From NCBI GenBank assembly GCA_965219845.1, contig CBDCOP010000006.1:496005-560004 (forward strand): a stretch of 64,000 nt of DNA, written 5' to 3'. Positions 19,513 to 59,828 of this stretch are shown one piece after another. The stretch is from Dehalococcoidia bacterium. GTDB lineage: Bacteria > Chloroflexota > Dehalococcoidia > Lucifugimonadales > Australimonadaceae. Each line of letters starts with the position of its first letter. Position 1 is the stretch's first letter. The position numbers and the translations under genes were made by a program. The notes beneath the pieces are model-generated. The model saw nothing but the letters and a program-made list of their open reading frames with translations. It had not been told where the DNA came from and ran no database searches.

Positions 19513-20187
19513 GTGAGCGCAGGCGCGGTCATCGTCGCCGCCGGCGCGAGCACGCGCATGGGAAGCGCGGGCGACAAGACGCTCGCCGACGTCGGCGGCG
19601 ATCCGCTCATCGCCCGGACCGTGGACGTCTTCGAGGGCTGCGATGCCATCGCTGCCGTCGTGCTCGTCGTCTCGGAGCGCAACTTGGACGCCATCGCCGC
19701 CTTGCGAGACGCCAAGGGATGGCAGAAGACGATGCCCCCGCTGCCCGGAGGCGCGCGGCGGCAGGACAGCGTCCGCGCCGGGCTCGATGCGTTGCCGCTC
19801 GACTGCGAGTGGGTGCTCGTGCACGACGGCGCGCGCCCGTTCGTGACGCCCCGCATGATCGAGGACGGCCTCGCAGCCGCCGCCGCGACCGGCGCCGCCA
19901 TCGCCGTGGTGCCGGCATTCGACACCGTGAAGCGCGTCGGGGAGGGCGGTCGCGTCGTCGAGACCCTCGACCGCAGCGAACTCGCCATGGTGCAGACACC
20001 GCAGGTGTTCCGCCGCGACGTGCTCGAGCGCGCCCACGCCGAGGTCGCGGACGATGTGACCGACGACGCCTCGATGGTGGAGCGCATCGGCGTCGAGGTG
20101 CGCACCTTCGAGGGCGCGCGCAGCAACATCAAGGTGACGACGCCGGAGGACCTCGTGTTGGCTCAGGCGATGCATCGGCGCGATTGA
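19513..20187 (+). CDS. ispD: 2-C-methyl-D-erythritol 4-phosphate cytidylyltransferase
   Basis: VIVAAGASTRMG P-loop-like motif and the VLVHDGARPF and VQTPQVF motifs. GTG 19513 chosen; the ORF track's upstream ATG 19471 overlaps the AKR gene. Confidence 0.9.
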   Translation: MSAGAVIVAAGASTRMGSAGDKTLADVGGDPLIARTVDVFEGCDAIAAVVLVVSERNLDAIAALRDAKGWQKTMPPLPGGARRQDSVRAGLDALPLDCEWVLVHDGARPFVTPRMIEDGLAAAAATGAAIAVVPAFDTVKRVGEGGRVVETLDRSELAMVQTPQVFRRDVLERAHAEVADDVTDDASMVERIGVEVRTFEGARSNIKVTTPEDLVLAQAMHRRD

Positions 20188-20221
20188 CGCGGTCCGGAGG
20201 TCGCGAAACCGTGTCGGTGGG

Positions 20222-20566
20222 CTATCCGGTTCTTGCGTAGAGCCCGATGATTGCGCCAACGATCCCAACCAGGATGGTTGCAAGCACAGCGACACCCGTT
20301 GTCAGCACAGTCGTCAGGCTGCGGAATCGCTCGTTCATCTCTTGGCGCATGGCGTCGAACTTCGCGTCCGAGTCTGCGCGTGCGGCTCGAATCTCCCCAA
20401 GGACACTCTCGAAACGCACGTTGGTCTCGGACCGTGACGCATCGAATCCTGCCCGCGTCTCTGCGCGGTGGCCTTCCAGTGAGCGCACGACGTCCCCGAT
20501 TCGCTCGTAAGAACCTTCGAGCCTGCTTACTCGTTCCGTGATGGATGGGGTCTGCTGCGTAGTCAT
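20222..20566 (-). CDS. Tail-anchored coiled-coil protein (hypothetical)
   Basis: 114 aa. Repetitive E/R-rich helical region followed by a C-terminal TM helix (VAVLATILVGIVGAIIGLY). Confidence 0.5.
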   Translation of the reverse strand: MTTQQTPSITERVSRLEGSYERIGDVVRSLEGHRAETRAGFDASRSETNVRFESVLGEIRAARADSDAKFDAMRQEMNERFRSLTTVLTTGVAVLATILVGIVGAIIGLYARTG

Positions 20567-21029
20567 GGGGTTGCTCTCTGCAATGGTAGCATAGTGGTGT
20601 TAGCGTAGGTAGCCCCTGCGAACAGCACGATGCCCTGGTGGCCGTTGGGCATCGCCAACCTCTTCCCACCCTTGTGACACGCGCCCCTTACGCCATCGCC
20701 CCTACGTGCCCTACGATGGTTCCGGCTGCGAATCCCTGCGTCGACGCCGCTCGCCCAGCTCGTTCAGGAGTGCAGTGGCGCTTAATGGCGCACAATGGCT
20801 CACTTTTCGCGGTGGAGGATGGCCACTCGCAGACCGGCGAGTGGTCCCTCCGGCGCGGAGGACACCGTCAGAGGAGAAATGGGACCGAATGAGACCCGAA
20901 ATTCGAGGGACCATTCCTCGACAACTCCACCTTCACGAGTGCAATGCCGTGCTTATTCCGCGCCATCCGTGGCCTTTCGCACGCAGGCCCTGCTCGCCGG
21001 CGTCTACCGTCCCGTGGCGAATCATCTCT

Positions 21030-21103
21030 CAGTTCCCCTCTCCCCCTGGGAGAGGGGTCAGGGGTGAGGGTTGGCGGCGTGGGGGCGGCATGCGCGCTTC
21101 GCC
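21030..21103. repeat. Copy of the 'PLPxGEG' hairpin repeat family
   Basis: CCCCTCTCCCCctggGAGAGGGGtcaGGGGTGAGGGTTGGCGG, related to 12267-12406. Confidence 0.8.
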
Positions 21104-21145
21104 TGCTAAACTTCCTCTGCACACCCGCCGCTGGAGGATGAGGAG

Positions 21146-21634
21146 ATGACCACGCGGTTTGGCATAGGCTACGACGCTCACGTCCTGGAGGAGGGCGTAC
21201 CGCTCACTCTGGGCGGTGTCCGTATCCCGTCGGAGCGCGGGCTCTCCGGCCACAGCGACGGCGACGTCGCCGCGCACGCCATCATCGACGCCCTCCTCGG
21301 CGCGGCTGCTCTCGGCGACATCGGCACGCACTTCAAGGAGGACGACCCCTCTGTTCCGCACGGCGTCACCAGCACGTCGCTCCTGAAACGCACCACCGCC
21401 ATGCTGCGCAGGTCCGGATGGAAGGTGGTCAACGTCGATGCTACAATCGTTCTCCAGCGCCCCCGGATCGCCGAGTACACCCCGGCCATGCGGTGGGCCA
21501 TCGCCGCCTCACTCGGCGTCGAACTCTCTGCCGTGAGCATCAAGGCCACCACGGAAGATGGCCTCGGGTACACCGGCTCGGAATCGGGCGCGGCGGCCAT
21601 GGCCGTGGCATCCATCACTGACGGCAATCCATGA
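21146..21634 (+). CDS. ispF: 2-C-methyl-D-erythritol 2,4-cyclodiphosphate synthase
   Basis: IGYDAHVL...GHSDGDVAAHAIIDALLGA signature; 162 aa. Confidence 0.95.
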   Translation: MTTRFGIGYDAHVLEEGVPLTLGGVRIPSERGLSGHSDGDVAAHAIIDALLGAAALGDIGTHFKEDDPSVPHGVTSTSLLKRTTAMLRRSGWKVVNVDATIVLQRPRIAEYTPAMRWAIAASLGVELSAVSIKATTEDGLGYTGSESGAAAMAVASITDGNP

Positions 21635-24228
21635 AACTCTCCGACACCCTCACCGGCGAGAAGCGCGACTTCCATCCATCTGGCGATGAGGTGCGTATCT
21701 ACGTCTGCGGCGTTACCCCGTATTCCTCCGCGCACGTCGGCCACGCGATGAGCTACATCGTCTTCGACGTGCTCCACCGCTACCTAGAGTTCCGTGGCTT
21801 CAAGGTGCGCCGCGTCCAGAACTTCACCGACATAGACGACAAGCTCATCGACCGCGCCGCCCAGGAGAACACGACCGTCGAGGCGCTCGCCGAGCGCCAC
21901 ATCGCCGAGTACTTCGCGAACATGGCCGCCCTCAACATCCGCGAGGCCGACGAGTATCCCCGCGCCACCCAGGAAGTGCCCAAGATCGTCGAGGTCATCT
22001 CCGGCCTCATCGACTCCCGCCATGCCTACGAGTCCAACGGCGACGTCTACTTCCGCGTCCGCAGCGACGACCAGTACGGCAAGCTCAGCCACCGCTCCCT
22101 GGACGCGATGCGGGCGGGAGCGCGCATCGAGCCGGGTGTGCAGAAGGAGCACCCCATGGACTTCGCGCTCTGGAAGTCCGCCAAGCCCGGCGAGCCGTCG
22201 TGGGAGAGCCCGTGGGGCGGCGGACGCCCCGGCTGGCACATCGAGTGCTCCGCGATGGCCCTCCGCTATCTCGGCGAAAGCATCGACATCCACGGCGGCG
22301 GGCAGGACCTCGTCTTCCCCCACCACGAGAACGAGATCGCCCAGAGCGAGGCGTTCACTGGCATACGCCCATTCGCGCGCTTCTGGCTCCACAACGGCCT
22401 GCTGAACCTGGACGCGCAGAAGATGAGCAAGTCGCTCGGCAATCTTGTCACTATCGACGAAGCACTAGAAGAGTACTCAGCAGACGCCATCCGTCTCTCC
22501 GTGCTCAACGCGCACTACCGTAGTCCCGGCTACTACTCGGACGAGGCGCTCGCCGGTTCGGAACGCGCCGCCGAGCGGCTCCGCGAGGCGGCATCGGCGG
22601 AGCCGAACGCGGGCGCGGGCGATGCGCTCGATGCCTCGGAGACGCAGGCGCGTTTCATTGAGGCGATGGACGATGACCTCAACAGTCCTCAGGCGGTCGC
22701 CACGCTATTCGACCTGGCGCGCGAGATCAACCGGGGTTCGACCGGGGGGCAGGACGTTGCGTCTGCACAGGAGACGCTTCGGGAACTGACCGGCGTGCTT
22801 GGCCTGACACTGGAGGAGCGCAAGGATACAGTCGACGCGGGTCTTGCCGCTCGCATCGAGCGCCTTGAAAATCGGCGAGCAGCCCTGCGTTCCGCTCGTG
22901 ACTTCGAAGGAGCAGACGCTATCCGCACCGAACTTATGGCACTCGGTGTTGAGTTGTCAGATACTCAATCTGCGCGTAACCAAAATGGAGATAATGGTTA
23001 TGAGGATTGGGGTGATGATACCTATGGGAGAAATAGACTGTACTTCGGCGATAACCTAAAGATCTTACGTGAAAGAATTCAAGACGATAGCGTAGACCTC
23101 ATCTATGTTGATCCACCCCAGCTGCTTTCAAATCACAGCTGGCCATCGTTGGATCTCACGGATACTATGCTTGCTAGAAGTACGAGGGTGTTTAACGATA
23201 TCTTGCACTGGGATAGCGAAGAGCCATTTGCTCGCCAAGATATTGCTCGTTTTATTGAAGCGATGAAGGTAGTTCACAACCTGCGCGATGTTCACTATCT
23301 GACTGGCACAGCAAAGAGGATCATTGAATTACATCGTGTCCTCCGTCCTAAGGGCAGCATATATCTCCACTGCAACTCTGATGCAAGTCATTATTTTAGA
23401 TTGCTGATGGATGTCGTGTTCGGCAAAGATAACTTTCGATCAGAAATTATATGGAATAATGCTCATTCTAGTGCACGATTGCAAGAGAAACGATACAGCG
23501 CCGCCCACGACGTAATCTTCTTCTATACTAAAGGTAGAGAATGGACTTGGAACCCTGTCTATACATATTACTATAGACTGTATGGCAAGAAGAGATATCC
23601 GAATGGCGAATTCGATGAAAAATCAAACAAGACTCGTCATTATAGGACTACTAGTTTGATGCGACCAAAAGGAATGAGTGGTTATTCATATTCATGGGAT
23701 GTGAAGCGTCCGATGGATGGAGAATGGACTGCTGACCTTGGCGGAGGCATCGAGAATCCTATATCTGGTTGGGAATACAAGAGAATTGTCTTAGACAAGC
23801 ACCATTGGAGAGTTTCTTATGAAGACATGGTGAAATTTACTCACGACAATAGACTCGCTTATTCTGAAGACGGAATCCCAACGTACAAAACCTATCTGGA
23901 AGAGATGCCGGGTGTTCCTCTACGGGATGTGTGGACTGATATCCCTGCACTAGGCATTCACTCGCGAGAAGGCGCTGGTTATCCCACACAAAAACCCGCG
24001 GCTTTACTTGAACGTATTATCACGGTGTCGAGCAACAAAGGAGACGTAGTGCTTGATCCTTTCTGCGGGAGTGGCACGACGATTGTTGCTTCGGAGCATC
24101 TTGGTCGCAAATGGATTGGTATGGAGGCCTCACATTTTGCGATGACGATGATTGGTAATCGCTTGGTGAAGACTTTCGAAGAGCCGGTTCCCTATGATGT
24201 AGTAAATGAAAATGGCATACGGTCGTAA
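21631..24228 (+). CDS. cysS: Cysteine--tRNA ligase continuing in-frame into a beta-class N6/N4 DNA methyltransferase module (865-aa ORF as given)
   Basis: The N-terminal ~450 aa are CysRS (YVCGVTPYSSAHVGHA, KMSKSLGN). From about 22985 the ORF encodes an MTase: RLYFGDNLKIL, motif IV DPPQ, motif I VLDPFCGSGTT. Confidence 0.8.
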   Translation: MKLSDTLTGEKRDFHPSGDEVRIYVCGVTPYSSAHVGHAMSYIVFDVLHRYLEFRGFKVRRVQNFTDIDDKLIDRAAQENTTVEALAERHIAEYFANMAALNIREADEYPRATQEVPKIVEVISGLIDSRHAYESNGDVYFRVRSDDQYGKLSHRSLDAMRAGARIEPGVQKEHPMDFALWKSAKPGEPSWESPWGGGRPGWHIECSAMALRYLGESIDIHGGGQDLVFPHHENEIAQSEAFTGIRPFARFWLHNGLLNLDAQKMSKSLGNLVTIDEALEEYSADAIRLSVLNAHYRSPGYYSDEALAGSERAAERLREAASAEPNAGAGDALDASETQARFIEAMDDDLNSPQAVATLFDLAREINRGSTGGQDVASAQETLRELTGVLGLTLEERKDTVDAGLAARIERLENRRAALRSARDFEGADAIRTELMALGVELSDTQSARNQNGDNGYEDWGDDTYGRNRLYFGDNLKILRERIQDDSVDLIYVDPPQLLSNHSWPSLDLTDTMLARSTRVFNDILHWDSEEPFARQDIARFIEAMKVVHNLRDVHYLTGTAKRIIELHRVLRPKGSIYLHCNSDASHYFRLLMDVVFGKDNFRSEIIWNNAHSSARLQEKRYSAAHDVIFFYTKGREWTWNPVYTYYYRLYGKKRYPNGEFDEKSNKTRHYRTTSLMRPKGMSGYSYSWDVKRPMDGEWTADLGGGIENPISGWEYKRIVLDKHHWRVSYEDMVKFTHDNRLAYSEDGIPTYKTYLEEMPGVPLRDVWTDIPALGIHSREGAGYPTQKPAALLERIITVSSNKGDVVLDPFCGSGTTIVASEHLGRKWIGMEASHFAMTMIGNRLVKTFEEPVPYDVVNENGIRS
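22985..24228 (+). other. AT-rich, presumably horizontally acquired orphan DNA methyltransferase module
   Basis: Sharp composition break: 23401-23460 has 21/60 G+C against 50/60 in 22561-22620. N6_N4_Mtase motif order is IV then I. No adjacent restriction enzyme gene. Confidence 0.8.
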
Positions 24229-25711
24229 TGCTCATTCCGTGTGCTCCTTGACCATTGCCCTCCGCGACTCCCTCGCCGCCATCGTCGGCCCGGAGCACGT
24301 CCTGACCGACGACGAGTCGCGCGAGCGGCTGTCGTTCGACGCCGTGATGGCGCACCGGCTCGGCGGACGCTCCGAGCTGGCAGCGGCGCGCGTGGACGCG
24401 GTGGCGCGTCCGGCTGACACGGCGGAGGTCGCTGCGGTGGTGTCGCTCGCGTCGGAGCGCGGCATTCCGGTCGTGCCCTACGGCGGCGGCACCGGCGTCA
24501 TGGGAGCGGTCGTGCCGGTGCGCGGTGGCATCGCGCTCGACCTGCGGCGCATGGACCGCATCGTCGAAGTGGGCCGCGAGGACAGGACCGCCCGCGTACA
24601 GCCCGGCGTCTACCTCGCCGACCTCGACGCGGCTGCCCGCGACTACGGCATGATGCTGGGGCACGACCCGTGGAGCGTGCCCATAGCCACGGTGGGAGGC
24701 GCGATCTCGACCGACAGCGTCGGCTACCGCGCCAGCTGGTACGGCTCCATGGGGCAGCAGGTGCGGGCTCTGGAAGTGGTGCTGGGGAGCGGCGAGGTCG
24801 TGCGGACCCGTCCCATCCAGCGGCAGAGCAGCGGCCCGATGCTGAAGGGGCTGTTTGCCGGCGCCGAGGGCACGATGGGCGTCATCACCGAGGCTACGAT
24901 TGACCTGCGCGCCCTGCCGGAAGCGCGCGAGTTCGCGTCGGTGGGGTTCGACACGTTCGAGCATGGCTATCCCGTCGTTGCCCGGTTGTTCGACATCGGC
25001 CTCGTTCCCGCGCTGATAGACCTCACCGAGGAGCCGGGGACTCCGGAGAACGCCGCGCCCTGCATCCTCTACCTTGGCTTCGAGGGCTACCGCGAGCAGG
25101 TGGAAGCGCAGCGCACCCGCGCGATGGCAGAGGCGCTGGCAGCGGGCGGCCGCGACCTTGGCCCCGGCCCGACCCGCGAGTACTGGGAGACGCGGCACGC
25201 GGTCGCGGAGCGCTGGCGCGACCGTACCCGCCCACTGCGCCCGACCGAGCGTTGGAAGGAGCAGCGGTGGCGCTACGCCGACTACCTGCACATCGCGATG
25301 CCTGTCTCGAAGGTTCTCGCATATAAGCGTTTCTGCGAAGAGGTCGCCGCCCGCCATGGTCTGGACGTGCGCGAGTCCGCCGTCTGGACGCACCCGGAGC
25401 TCTTCTCCGTGTTCGTGCGCGCGCCTCATGAATCCTCCCTTCCAGTTGGAAACGGCCGCGATGTTCCCTCTCTCCCCCTGGGAGATGGCAGGGGTGAGGG
25501 TGAACGAGCCTCGGCGTTGCGGCAGGCGGTCGACGCCATGCTGGAGGAGGCGCTGCGCCTCGGCGGAGGCGTCGAGTACTGCCACGGCCTCGGTGTGAAG
25601 CTCGACGGTTGGGCGGAGCGGGAGTGGGGCGACGCGCTCCTGCTCGCGCGGCGGCTGAAGCGTGCGGTCGACCCCAACGGCATCCTGAACCCGGAGAAGC
25701 TGGGGCTGTGA
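24206..25711 (+). CDS. FAD-linked oxidase (GlcD/FAD_binding_4 family)
   Basis: FAD-binding PCMH-type N-terminal region (VVPYGGGTGVMG) and C-terminal HGLGVK...DPNGILNP. Start uncertain (24206-24240). Confidence 0.85.
   Translation: MKMAYGRNAHSVCSLTIALRDSLAAIVGPEHVLTDDESRERLSFDAVMAHRLGGRSELAAARVDAVARPADTAEVAAVVSLASERGIPVVPYGGGTGVMGAVVPVRGGIALDLRRMDRIVEVGREDRTARVQPGVYLADLDAAARDYGMMLGHDPWSVPIATVGGAISTDSVGYRASWYGSMGQQVRALEVVLGSGEVVRTRPIQRQSSGPMLKGLFAGAEGTMGVITEATIDLRALPEAREFASVGFDTFEHGYPVVARLFDIGLVPALIDLTEEPGTPENAAPCILYLGFEGYREQVEAQRTRAMAEALAAGGRDLGPGPTREYWETRHAVAERWRDRTRPLRPTERWKEQRWRYADYLHIAMPVSKVLAYKRFCEEVAARHGLDVRESAVWTHPELFSVFVRAPHESSLPVGNGRDVPSLPLGDGRGEGERASALRQAVDAMLEEALRLGGGVEYCHGLGVKLDGWAEREWGDALLLARRLKRAVDPNGILNPEKLGL
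25461..25510. repeat. 'PLPxGEG' repeat copy embedded in-frame in the FAD-oxidase CDS
   Basis: TTCCCTCTCTCCCCCTGGGAGATGGCAGGGGTGAGGGTG translates to VPSLPLGDGRGEGE within the ORF. Confidence 0.7.
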
Positions 25712-59128: not shown

Positions 59129-59219
59129 GCATCATGCGTATCCAACGACGGCTAGGGTGCGCGCATATATCTGTTACGGTCATTCCCATACGCAATCTGA
59201 TGGATTAGAGGAGCCACAG

Positions 59220-59828
59220 ATGGAGATTCCTTTGGTAGTGATAGTGGTATGGATAGGCTTAGTTAGTGGTTTCATTCTAATTGTTGTGGGTGCACTCTGG
59301 TCTCCATTCGCTGGGCTTATCTGCGCGAATATCGCCCGGAACAAGGGTGCCGACATATTACGATACAGGAAAGAAGGAACTCAAGCTTCTCTCCACCAGT
59401 TCTTGCCTTGGCTCTATGTTGTCTCGCTGATGAGGGAGAGACCGGTTTCTGAACAAGTGGTTCGGTTAGGTTACATAATCATCTATGCGCTTTGGTTTCT
59501 TGGACCAATAGGCATGTGGGTAGCTGTTGCGTTGTTGACAATGTTTACCTCTGTCGAAGACTTGGACGCTGGGAGTGCTGGAGTCAAGGCGCTATGGGTA
59601 GTTGTTTATGTGGCTATCGCTGTGTTCAATGGATCAGTGTGGTACCGCTCTTTGCAAGCATTACACCGGTTTCATCATTCACAACGAACAGCAGTGTCGT
59701 CGTTGAATCCTACAATCCACGAAGGCTACCTCAAGGTCTTCAAATACTCGGTGGCATCGTATGCGGCTGTTCCTTTATTTGTCGTCATCGCTGTTATTCT
59801 CGCTTTTGCAACAGGCGAGTGGGAGTAG
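59220..59828 (+). CDS. AT-rich multi-TM membrane protein (hypothetical, likely acquired)
   Basis: GAGGAG RBS plus ATG 59220. About 5 hydrophobic helices. 23/60 G+C in 59221-59280. Confidence 0.6.
   Translation: MEIPLVVIVVWIGLVSGFILIVVGALWSPFAGLICANIARNKGADILRYRKEGTQASLHQFLPWLYVVSLMRERPVSEQVVRLGYIIIYALWFLGPIGMWVAVALLTMFTSVEDLDAGSAGVKALWVVVYVAIAVFNGSVWYRSLQALHRFHHSQRTAVSSLNPTIHEGYLKVFKYSVASYAAVPLFVVIAVILAFATGEWE

What the first reader, a model, noticed from the sequence alone, without database searches (positions are those of the whole stretch)
21631..24228. Foreign AT-rich DNA methyltransferase fused in-frame to the 3' end of cysS
The CysRS ORF has no stop at its normal C-terminus (...IRTELMALGVELSDTQ). 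It runs on for ~415 codons that encode a beta-class N6/N4 DNA methyltransferase (RLYFGDNLKIL, motif IV, then motif I VLDPFCGSGTT). Composition changes abruptly: 21/60 G+C in 23401-23460 against 50/60 in 22561-22620. The module is therefore acquired DNA that replaced the cysS stop. No restriction enzyme gene is adjacent. One extra A in the run at 23031-23033 would produce both a cysS stop (AGA AAA TAG) and a separate MTase ORF starting ATG 23024 (MGENRLYFGDNLKIL). The fusion could therefore be a real single-base deletion, a phase-variable tract, or a homopolymer sequencing error. AAAATGG occurs at both borders (22982-22988 and 24209-24215), which may be coincidence.
Basis: partly seen in the sequence, partly recalled or inferred. 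Interest (0 to 1): 0.7.

Follow-up and report, generated by a model that had tools for sequence, protein, structure and literature searches.

The report
Foreign methylase remnant fused onto cysS
In an uncultured Dehalococcoidia bacterium, a 1.4-kb piece of low-GC foreign DNA replaced the end of the essential cysteinyl-tRNA synthetase gene, leaving one real 865-codon reading frame that joins the synthetase to a truncated, probably inactive DNA methyltransferase; it looks like a genomic accident, not a new enzyme.

Summary
ORF 21631-24228 encodes CysRS followed in frame by a beta-class DNA methyltransferase (MTase) domain in DNA of about 45% GC, in a genome of 66% GC. It is not a sequencing error: independent assemblies of three public runs from two samples give the same sequence with no indel. 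Related strains in six other runs, and all 120 closest CysRS proteins, lack it.

- The foreign block starts inside cysS at about 22822, not at the stop. It carries its own diverged, low-GC3 copy of cysS codons 398-446.
- The likely original cysS stop (TGG AGA TAA, 22986-22994) is still there but out of frame. One extra A at 22982-22985 would give a 454-aa CysRS of normal length. Two 1-nt losses in short A runs therefore probably merged cysS, a 29-nt spacer and the MTase gene.
- All close MTase homologues carry a C-terminal Mrr-type nuclease domain, which is cut off here. Family-invariant residues are lost (DPPF to DPPQL).

Best reading: a decaying restriction-modification remnant, stuck to an essential gene at an apparent insertion hotspot. 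The architecture was not found elsewhere, but it is probably not adaptive.

The parts
21631..22821 (+). Native part of cysS (codons 1-397): catalytic domain with HVGH (21733-21744) and KMSKS (22420-22434), plus the DALR_2 domain.
   Evidence: 95% aa identity to P0271 and 89-90% nt identity to L001, L100 and L103. GC3 is 0.87, like the neighbouring genes at 0.83-0.89.
22822..22968 (+). Left end of the foreign block: a homeologous cysS 3' segment (codons 398-446), colinear and in frame with the native part.
   Evidence: There is a sharp break at codon 398. GC3 falls to 0.47. Nt identity to relatives is 0.58-0.65, while those relatives share 0.88-0.95 with each other in this segment. Aa identity to any of 120 relatives is at most 65%. 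Contigs of relatives stop aligning at 22805-22825. The segment matches only positions 2-39 of the 51-position CysS_C profile.
22982..22994 (+). A4 run (22982-22985) followed by TGG AGA TAA (22986-22994) in the -1 frame: inferred original end of the imported cysS, no longer read because of a 1-nt loss.
   Evidence: One extra A gives a 454-aa CysRS ending ...SARNQKWR*, which is the family-typical length (relatives are 453-457 aa). The CysS_C profile match then extends to positions 2-51 of 51, and the score rises from 14.4 to 16.8 bits. Inference, not shown.
22969..23028 (+). Linker SARNQNGDNGYEDWGDDTYG. It covers the frameshifted cysS tail, the former 29-nt intergenic spacer (22995-23023, with SD-like GAGGA and GGGGTGA), and the first bases after ATG 23024.
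   Evidence: No homologue of this peptide was found in any search.
23024..23033 (+). Former MTase start codon ATG (23024-23026, +1 frame) and the A3 run 23031-23033, the inferred site of a second 1-nt loss.
   Evidence: With one extra A the product starts MGENRLYFGDNL. In 108 of 120 homologues the start Met lies 1-7 residues before this motif. There is no in-frame ATG, GTG or TTG between 22969 and motif IV (read from the sequence).
23029..24225 (+). Beta-class N6/N4 DNA MTase domain, truncated after PYDVV (24190-24204). Motif IV is degenerate: DPPQLL at 23110-23127. LHCN is at 23365-23376 and motif I DPFCGSGTT at 24055-24081.
   Evidence: Pfam N6_N4_Mtase scores 137 bits. The best homologue is 49% identical, and nearly all close homologues are about 575 aa with a C-terminal Mrr_cat/NA-iREase1 domain that is absent here. 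DPPF, LHCD and DTW are invariant in homologues and changed here. The excess divergence is concentrated in residues 497-556.
24226..24250 (+). Stop codon TAA (24226-24228) and the right junction of the foreign block.
   Evidence: Homology to L001 resumes at ATTCCG (24233), just upstream of the start of the downstream gene. The native GGAGGAG Shine-Dalgarno of L001 is gone. Contigs of relatives resume at 24251-24260.
24239..25711 (+). Downstream FAD-linked oxidase gene. The start is probably GTG 24239; the longer ORF from ATG 24206 overlaps the end of the fusion ORF. No terminator lies between the two genes.
   Evidence: Pfam FAD_binding_4 and FAD-oxidase_C. It is syntenic with L001, L102 and L103. 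No terminator-like site was found in 21000-25000.

Best explanation
The ORF is a real chimeric gene made by horizontal transfer followed by decay.

1. A block of about 1.41 kb and about 46% GC (22822 to about 24232) replaced roughly 190-220 nt of native sequence: the last ~59 codons of cysS, its stop, and the spacer upstream of the FAD-oxidase gene.
2. The left join is an in-register crossover inside cysS. The incoming DNA therefore carried the 3' end of a related, lower-GC cysS. Downstream of that lay a single-chain MTase-nuclease (restriction-modification) gene.
3. The nuclease (Mrr_cat) domain was cut off at the right join or by a later deletion.
4. Two single-base losses in short A runs (22982-22985 and 23031-23033) then removed the imported cysS stop from the frame and destroyed the MTase's own start. 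cysS, the former spacer and the MTase domain are now read as one 865-aa protein.
5. The MTase domain has lost the motif-IV aromatic residue and other family-invariant residues, so it is most likely inactive or severely impaired.
6. The CysRS part keeps its catalytic core but lacks the last strand of its anticodon-binding domain.

I read the fusion as a tolerated by-product of the decay of a restriction-modification gene at an insertion hotspot, not as a selected bifunctional enzyme.

Shown: the DNA state, the borders, the foreign origin, the truncation and the loss of conserved residues. Inferred: the order of events, the two 1-nt losses, the loss of MTase activity and the lack of adaptive value.
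For: **Reality of the DNA state**
- Contigs of X1 and X2 (0 differences over 22400-24504) and of X3 from another sample and study (3 substitutions, 0 gaps over 22797-24342) reproduce both junctions and both A runs.
- Depth across the block (10.9x in X1) equals that of the flanks.

**Absence in relatives**
- Contigs in X4, X6, X7, X11 and X12 skip 22820/25 to 24251/60, with only 202-215 nt between.
- L001, L102 and L103 have cysS followed directly by the FAD oxidase.
- All 120 closest CysRS proteins are 391-520 aa and have no MTase domain.
- No protein among the best 150 hits in 1.84 billion representatives matches both halves.

**Left border inside cysS**
- The codon-by-codon break falls at codon 398. 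GC3 drops from 0.87 to 0.47, the same as the MTase part at 0.43.
- Nt identity to relatives is 0.58-0.65, where those relatives share 0.88-0.95 with each other.

**Truncated restriction-modification gene**
- Homologues are 43-49% identical and about 575 aa, with Mrr_cat/NA-iREase1 at residues ~430-515. The window copy ends at PYDVV, which aligns with P0001 residue ~407.

**Degeneration of the MTase**
- DPPF, LHCD and DTW are invariant in the 120 homologues and are retained in the metagenome homologues of 33-59% identity whose alignment spans them. The window has DPPQL, LHCN and DIL.
- The window differs at 47 of about 150 columns that are at least 95% conserved. Over all 174 such columns, nuclease domain included, homologues differ at a mean of 2.25.
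- The divergence peaks right after motif IV.
- Both substitutions seen inside the MTase in the X3 strain are non-synonymous: G681R and I749V.

**Frameshift reconstruction**
- An extra A at 22982-22985 gives a 454-aa CysRS ending KWR* and a full-length CysS_C match.
- An extra A at 23031-23033 gives MGENRLYFGDNL, as in the homologues.
- A 29-nt spacer with Shine-Dalgarno-like motifs lies between the two.

**Hotspot**
- Three different arrangements occur at this site in sample S4, and two other assemblies break 2 nt after the cysS stop.
Against: - The donor was not found. Nothing closer than 49% to the MTase exists in the protein, metagenome or viral collections, and nothing matches the imported cysS tail. 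The donor arrangement and the right-hand join are therefore inferred.
- The MTase frame is fully open over 400 codons of AT-rich DNA despite heavy divergence. That is not what long neutral decay predicts. It could mean selection on the domain or a very recent transfer from an unsampled, naturally divergent lineage.
- Two independent 1-nt losses that together yield a clean fusion is a coincidence that selection might explain better.
- The gain in CysS_C score on 'repair' is small (2.4 bits) and stays below Pfam's cut-off. The D-to-W spacing in the repaired tail (9 residues) is longer than the usual 7-8.
- Loss of MTase activity rests on sequence only.
- The carrier strain is the main form of this lineage in sample S1 (11-18x). 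The only native-type cysS 3' end seen there is a single 151-nt contig at about 2x. The allele is therefore not obviously costly.
Confidence: 0.62

Rival explanations
1. Selected, working fusion. The 98-kDa protein is kept because the MTase-like domain does something useful when tethered to CysRS. It might bind nucleic acid in place of the lost anticodon-binding strand, methylate RNA or DNA with an unusual catalytic loop, or couple translation status to DNA methylation.
For: - The ORF is intact over 400 AT-rich codons, with 13-32 stops in each of the other frames.
- The AdoMet-binding half (YPTQKP, DPFCGSGTT) is well conserved, with a window-to-homologue versus homologue-to-homologue identity ratio of 0.85-0.87.
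- The allele is the main form of this lineage in S1 and is also present in S2.
- Fusions of aaRS genes with other enzymes are known (PMC13215547).
Against: - The architecture is unique among the best 150 hits in 1.84 billion representatives and among the 120 closest CysRS proteins.
- The carriers are nearly clonal: 0 differences in 2516 nt and 3 in 1546 nt. There is therefore no evidence of long-term retention.
- Composition is not ameliorated (0.46 against 0.66 GC), so the event is recent.
- The motif-IV aromatic residue and other invariant residues are lost.
- The linker is translated former intergenic DNA.
Confidence: 0.1
2. Artefact: a homopolymer miscall or a chimeric metagenome assembly joined an AT-rich contig from another organism to cysS.
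For: - Both suspected frameshift sites lie in A runs.
- The source is a metagenome-assembled genome.
- X1 and X2 may be the very reads the window was assembled from.
Against: - Three independently assembled runs, including X3 from another sample and study, span both junctions and both A runs with no gaps.
- The runs look like short-read data, since they yield 151-nt contigs. A3 and A4 runs are not error-prone in such data.
- Depth is continuous across the junctions.
- The left junction is in register within cysS, which a random chimera would not produce.
Confidence: 0.03
3. Two or three separate products are still made from this DNA by recoding: ribosomal frameshifting at the A runs, transcriptional slippage or phase variation. 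That would yield a normal 454-aa CysRS and a free MTase.
For: - The out-of-frame W-R-stop and the out-of-frame ATG are each one base away from being in frame.
- A normal CysRS tail would restore the conserved last strand.
Against: - A3 and A4 tracts are far shorter than known slippage or phase-variable tracts. This rests on established knowledge and was not tested here.
- No canonical X XXY YYZ heptamer is visible at either site (sequence).
- No indel variants appear in any contig, although contigs drop rare variants.
Confidence: 0.05
4. Same end state, different origin. The block is the stump of an integrative element that targets the 3' end of cysS and brings a surrogate 3' end, as phage 21 and e14 do at icd. 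Later deletions removed the integrase, the nuclease domain and the displaced native cysS end.
For: - The in-register junction sits in a conserved stretch of cysS.
- The surrogate 3' end has the same composition as the cargo.
- In sample S4 a second lineage also loses alignment near cysS codon ~392 and carries a different insert.
- The site is variable in several assemblies.
Against: - There is no integrase, no att repeat and no displaced cysS 3' fragment at the right end.
- The inserts seen (0.74-1.7 kb) are too small to be autonomous elements.
- It needs more deletion events than exchange through flanking homology or one-sided-homology (HFIR-type) recombination.
Confidence: 0.15

Closest known systems
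Uncharacterised single-chain family of beta-class N6/N4 MTase plus C-terminal Mrr_cat/NA-iREase1 PD-(D/E)xK domain (about 575 aa; P0001-P0120; some annotated 'restriction endonuclease subunit M' or 'DNA modification methylase')
   Same: The MTase domain aligns end to end at 43-49% identity, with the same N-terminus (NxLYFGDNL), the same motif order and the same inserted recognition region.
   Different: The nuclease domain is missing. The gene's own start codon is out of frame. DPPF, LHCD and DTW are changed. The window copy is a long-branch outlier: 0.46 identity to the family, against 0.66 among its members.
Solved beta-class MTases (CcrM 6pbd, M.MboIIA 1g60, M.RsrI 1eg2, DpnA 5hek; EcoP15I Mod 4zcf)
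   Same: There is sequence similarity around motif I and the preceding TQKP motif (E 1e-15 to 1e-9), and the permuted motif order IV...I is shared.
   Different: These enzymes are free-standing or are subunits of restriction-modification systems. They have an aromatic residue in motif IV (DPPY/SPPY); that is general knowledge and was not re-checked here.
Aminoacyl-tRNA synthetase gene fusions, e.g. Mycoplasma penetrans MetRS with tandem N-terminal ancillary domains (PMC13215547)
   Same: A bacterial aaRS gene is roughly doubled in size by fusion to an unrelated enzyme-like module.
   Different: The M. penetrans fusion is a stable feature of the species with a demonstrated structural role. Here the partner is a decaying DNA MTase of foreign composition, the join is translated spacer DNA, and the aaRS lost part of its anticodon-binding domain.
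Fragments of fused restriction-modification genes acquired by transfer, e.g. Haloferax volcanii HVO_A0006 (PMC4389544)
   Same: Only one domain of a single-chain restriction-modification protein persists after transfer or rearrangement.
   Different: In H. volcanii the surviving piece is the N-terminal nuclease of a Type IIG enzyme, flanked by transposases, and it is a free-standing gene. Here the MTase half survives and is fused to a housekeeping gene.
Homology-facilitated illegitimate recombination and mosaic transformation (PMC3240628, PMC13344027)
   Same: There is one clear homologous, in-register junction in a core gene, with foreign cargo beyond it. There may also be an extra donor-like patch in cysS (codons 271-284).
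   Different: Neither the donor nor the uptake route is known. The right junction cannot be classified as illegitimate or homologous without the donor.

Membership tests
Cysteinyl-tRNA synthetase (class I, TIGR00435) | Whole-protein score above the curated cut-off | tested here: met
   499 bits against a cut-off of 340, over residues 1-446.
Cysteinyl-tRNA synthetase (class I, TIGR00435) | HIGH and KMSKS signature motifs | tested here: met
   HVGH at residues 35-38 and KMSKS at 264-268.
Cysteinyl-tRNA synthetase (class I, TIGR00435) | Complete C-terminal anticodon-binding domain (Pfam CysS_C, ending ...G-T-x-W-K/R) | tested here: not met
   Only profile positions 2-39 of 51 match, at 14.5 bits against a cut-off of 23. 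Relatives match positions 2-51 at 25-27 bits. All but two of the 70 compared loci (one cut by its contig end, one divergent) end in the ...G-x-x-hydrophobic/W... strand, which is missing here.
Beta-class N6A/N4C DNA methyltransferase (Pfam N6_N4_Mtase) | Score above the gathering threshold, and permuted motif order (IV before I) | tested here: met
   136.9 bits against 26.7. DPP lies at residue 494 and FCGSG at 811-815.
Beta-class N6A/N4C DNA methyltransferase (Pfam N6_N4_Mtase) | Motif IV (D/N/S)PP(Y/F/W) with an aromatic fourth residue | tested here: not met
   The window has DPPQLL. All 120 close homologues, and every metagenome homologue aligned across the motif, have DPPF.
Beta-class N6A/N4C DNA methyltransferase (Pfam N6_N4_Mtase) | Motif I FxGxG (AdoMet binding) | tested here: met
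   DPFCGSGTT at residues 809-817.
Beta-class N6A/N4C DNA methyltransferase (Pfam N6_N4_Mtase) | Methyl transfer to DNA | not testable with these tools
   This needs a methylome or an enzyme assay.
Single-chain MTase + Mrr_cat restriction-modification family | C-terminal PD-(D/E)xK (Mrr_cat/NA-iREase1) domain | tested here: not met
   The ORF ends 7 residues after the PYDVV motif at the end of the MTase domain. No Mrr_cat hit was found.
Phase-variable homopolymer switch | A long mutable tract (usually 7 nt or more) with length variants in the population | tested here: not met
   The tracts are A4 and A3. No indel appears in the contigs of three runs. Rare variants cannot be excluded from contigs.
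Integrative element with a surrogate 3' end of its target gene (phage 21/e14-icd type) | An integrase, att core repeats and a displaced native 3' fragment at the far end | tested here: not met
   None is present between 22822 and the FAD-oxidase gene. An element-like surrogate 3' end is present.

The most novel reading that the evidence does not exclude
The CysRS-MTase fusion is a functional, selected protein. A catalytically re-purposed MTase-like domain either replaces the lost anticodon-binding strand in tRNA(Cys) recognition, or it links an essential translation enzyme to nucleic-acid methylation or binding. That would be a new class of appended aaRS domain, born from a restriction-modification gene.
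Probability: 0.05. Interest if true: 0.75.

Novelty: new variant of a known kind. Interest (0 to 1): 0.35.

Why it matters
- It is a clean natural snapshot of how foreign DNA enters at a core-gene junction, loses its dangerous half (the nuclease), and becomes welded to an essential gene by single-base losses.
- It shows that an essential aaRS can apparently tolerate loss of its last anticodon-domain strand plus a 46-kDa appendage, if no second cysS exists in the genome.
- For annotation it is a warning. The ORF should not be called a bifunctional enzyme or an active orphan methylase on domain hits alone.
- The apparent hotspot between cysS and the FAD-oxidase gene in this Dehalococcoidia clade may be of more general interest than the fusion itself.

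Tried and rejected
- An exact look-up of the 865-aa product in public assemblies found nothing on record.
- A protein search with the 73-aa junction segment (imported cysS tail plus linker) gave no hit; the query was too short for the word index.
- The donor was sought in the metagenome and viral collections. Only MTases of 34-48% identity turned up, and none matched the cysS-like part.
- No RNA runs exist for this locus.
- PADLOC gives only generic Type II/III MTase models.
- I tested whether the degenerate stretch after motif IV is a compensated frameshift. The other frames do not read better, and SN...(W/Y) and F.D..HW stay in register, so this is true amino-acid divergence (and reading).
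- The AAAATGG 'border repeat' is rejected: both copies lie inside the block, and such 7-mer repeats are common there.
- Literature searches found no CysRS-DNA MTase fusion.
- The 0.74-kb and 1.7-kb inserts of relatives in run X6 could not be read, because contig sequences are not retrievable with these tools.
- No second cysS lies in the 64-kb window. The rest of the genome could not be checked.


Full report
**1. The observation**

The window contains one ORF, 21631..24228 on the + strand, of 865 codons. Its first 446 residues are a cysteinyl-tRNA synthetase. TIGR00435 scores 499 bits against a cut-off of 340, and Pfam finds tRNA-synt_1e and DALR_2. Residues 488-839 match Pfam N6_N4_Mtase at 137 bits.

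GC falls from about 0.66 to 0.40-0.50 between roughly 22900 and 24230. The 23-24 kb bin is the only 1-kb bin below 0.54 GC in the 64 kb. The MTase frame has only its terminal stop, against 13-32 stops in each of the other five frames.

**2. Is the fusion real DNA?**

A k-mer search found three public metagenome runs that hold the stretch.
- Logan contigs of X1 and X2 (sample S1) are identical to the window over 22400-24504.
- A 1546-nt contig of X3, from another sample and another study, covers 22797-24342 with three substitutions and no gap.

Both junctions and both short A runs are therefore reproduced by independent assemblies. In X1, depth over the block (10.9x) is continuous with the flanks. 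The runs yield 151-nt minimal contigs, which suggests short reads; A3 and A4 runs are not error-prone in such data. I consider a sequencing or assembly artefact very unlikely.

The carrier strains in S1 and S2 are almost identical, with 0 differences in 2516 nt and 3 in 1546 nt. The allele has therefore spread between samples, but it is young.

**3. Host and empty sites**

The nearest genome (L001, a Dehalococcoidia MAG; CysRS 88% identical) and other relatives (L102, L103) share the gene order ispD-ispF-cysS-FAD oxidase-NmrA-like. In them cysS ends ...ELTDSPSGTTWRVVG*, and the next gene starts 21-52 nt later.

Contigs of relatives in five further runs align up to 22820-22825 and resume at 24251-24260, with only 202-215 nt between. 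All 120 closest CysRS clusters (65-94% identity) are 391-520 aa and have no MTase domain. A full HMMER scan of 1.84 billion representative proteins with the 865-aa query returned only ordinary CysRS proteins at the top. No protein among the best 150 matches both halves. The fusion is thus confined to this lineage.

**4. Where the foreign DNA really starts**

A codon-by-codon comparison with L001 shows a sharp break at codon 398 (22822).
- Upstream of the break most codons are identical and GC3 is 0.87.
- From codon 398 on, nearly every codon differs and GC3 is 0.47, the same as the linker plus MTase (0.43). Neighbouring genes have 0.83-0.89.
- In codons 398-446 the window shares 0.58-0.65 nt identity with four relatives. 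Those relatives share 0.88-0.95 within the close clade and about 0.70 with the outgroup L102.
- At protein level the segment is at most 65% identical to any of the 120 relatives, while residues 1-397 reach 95%.

The block (22822 to about 24232, 1411 nt, 0.46 GC) therefore includes a homeologous copy of the cysS 3' end, joined in register. Laid on L001, the carrier contig replaces 221 nt with 1437 nt.

A small extra patch, codons 271-284, has 9 of 14 third positions AT where L001 has GC. This hints at mosaic recombination.

The right border lies between the TAA stop (24226-24228) and 24250. Homology to L001 resumes at ATTCCG (24233), and the native GGAGGAG ribosome-binding site is gone.

**5. 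The missing stop and the missing start**

After ...ELSDTQ the protein leaves the CysRS family. Nearly all of the 70 compared CysRS proteins continue with ...G-T-x-W-K/R and stop within a few residues. Pfam CysS_C matches only positions 2-39 of 51 here (14.5 bits), against positions 2-51 (25-27 bits) in relatives.

In the -1 frame, however, TGG AGA TAA lies at 22986-22994, directly after the A run 22982-22985.
- One extra A there would give ...SARNQKWR*, a CysRS of 454 aa. That is the normal length in this clade (453-457 aa).
- The CysS_C match would then run to the end of the profile, and the score would rise from 14.4 to 16.8 bits.

After that stop comes a 29-nt spacer with Shine-Dalgarno-like GAGGA and GGGGTGA, then ATG 23024 in the +1 frame. 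One extra A at 23031-23033 would give MGENRLYFGDNL... (401 aa), which matches the homologues; most of them start 1-7 residues before this motif. No in-frame ATG, GTG or TTG exists between 22969 and motif IV.

The most economical reconstruction is a donor arrangement of cysS-stop, spacer, then the MTase gene, converted into one ORF by two 1-nt losses. This is inference. The score gain is small, and the W lies two residues further from the conserved D than usual.

**6. What the MTase was**

The best homologues (43-49% identity over 95-98% of the domain) are proteins of about 575 aa, in which the MTase is followed by a Mrr_cat/NA-iREase1 PD-(D/E)xK domain at residues ~430-515. They sit as solitary genes among housekeeping genes, so they look like single-chain restriction-modification enzymes. 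The window copy ends 7 residues after PYDVV, exactly at the end of the MTase domain. The nuclease half was therefore deleted, which explains why no restriction gene is nearby.

The remaining domain is an outlier. Its identity to the family is 0.46, against 0.66 among family members. It differs at 47 of about 150 MTase columns that are at least 95% conserved; over all 174 such columns, homologues differ at a mean of 2.25 and a maximum of 19.

The losses include the motif-IV aromatic residue (DPPF to DPPQL), LHCD to LHCN and DTW to DIL. These residues are invariant in the 120 close homologues and are kept in the distant homologues of 33-59% identity whose alignment spans them.

The excess divergence is concentrated in residues 497-556, right after motif IV. 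The AdoMet-binding part (YPTQKP, DPFCGSGTT) is well kept. The two substitutions that distinguish the X3 strain inside the MTase are both non-synonymous, G681R and I749V. That is weakly consistent with relaxed selection. I infer that the domain is inactive or severely impaired. This was not tested.

**7. What argues the other way**

Heavy divergence without a single stop or frameshift in 400 AT-rich codons is not what prolonged neutral decay predicts. There are three possible explanations:
- the divergence arose in an unsampled donor lineage where the protein was functional, and the transfer is recent;
- the open frame is being maintained, for example because translation must reach the downstream gene, which has lost its own ribosome-binding site, overlaps the fusion ORF, and has no terminator before it;
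- the domain itself is useful.

The carrier is the dominant form of this lineage in S1. The only native-type cysS 3' end seen there is one 151-nt contig at about 2x. I give the 'selected fusion' reading about 10%, and its most novel form 5%.

**8. How the block got there**

The in-register left junction calls for recombination within cysS. The candidates are:
- exchange of a variable cassette through homology in both flanking core genes with a lower-GC relative;
- one-sided, homology-facilitated illegitimate recombination (PMC3240628; mosaic outcomes in PMC13344027);
- the stump of an integrative element that brings a surrogate gene end. No integrase, att repeat or displaced cysS fragment is present.

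The site looks like a hotspot. In sample S4, three related lineages have 215, 980 and 1873 nt between the same flanks. One of them also loses alignment near cysS codon ~392. Two other assemblies break 2 nt after the cysS stop. I could not read those inserts.

**9. Comparison with what is known, and verdict**

aaRS genes fused to other modules are known (PMC13215547). So are fragments of fused restriction-modification genes left by transfer (PMC4389544). A CysRS joined to a DNA MTase was not found in any collection or in the literature searches.

The object is therefore a new architecture of a known kind of event: gene fusion by frameshift during the decay of acquired DNA. It is real and well documented, but it is most probably a tolerated accident. 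Interest 0.35.

Noticed in passing
window 22805-24260, compared with contigs of run X6 (sample S4); L100 and L101 contig ends: The spacer between cysS and the FAD-oxidase gene varies among close relatives. In one sample, related lineages have 215, 980 and 1873 nt between the same flanks. One of them also has a non-alignable cysS 3' end. Two assemblies end 2 nt after the cysS stop. This looks like an insertion or replacement hotspot.
   Followed up: partly
window 20188-21145 (between ispD and ispF): About 770 nt more than in L001, L100 and L103. It contains a minus-strand ORF, 20222-20566 (114 aa, coiled-coil plus a C-terminal hydrophobic helix, no Pfam hit). One X3 contig appears to skip 20153 to 21245, so this may be a second variable insert next to the same operon.
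   Followed up: partly
window 22441-22482 (cysS codons 271-284): A short patch in which 9 of 14 third codon positions are A/T where L001 has G/C, well inside the otherwise native part of cysS. It may be a second donor-derived recombination tract.
   Followed up: partly
window 59157-59828: A lower-GC stretch (0.54 in the 59-60 kb bin) with a 223-aa ORF predicted to be a multi-pass membrane protein, with no Pfam hit. It may be another acquired gene.
   Followed up: no
window 24206-24241: The FAD-oxidase gene has lost the strong GGAGGAG ribosome-binding site seen in L001. Its likely start (GTG 24239, or ATG 24206/24212 inside the foreign DNA) overlaps or abuts the stop of the fusion ORF, so its translation may now depend on coupling to the fusion ORF.
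   Followed up: partly
P0278 and P0367 (close CysRS relatives in public assemblies): Two database CysRS entries, 92-94% identical over the aligned part, have frameshifted and unrelated C-termini (464 and 391 aa). These are probably assembly errors or further lesions in the same 3' region of cysS.
   Followed up: no
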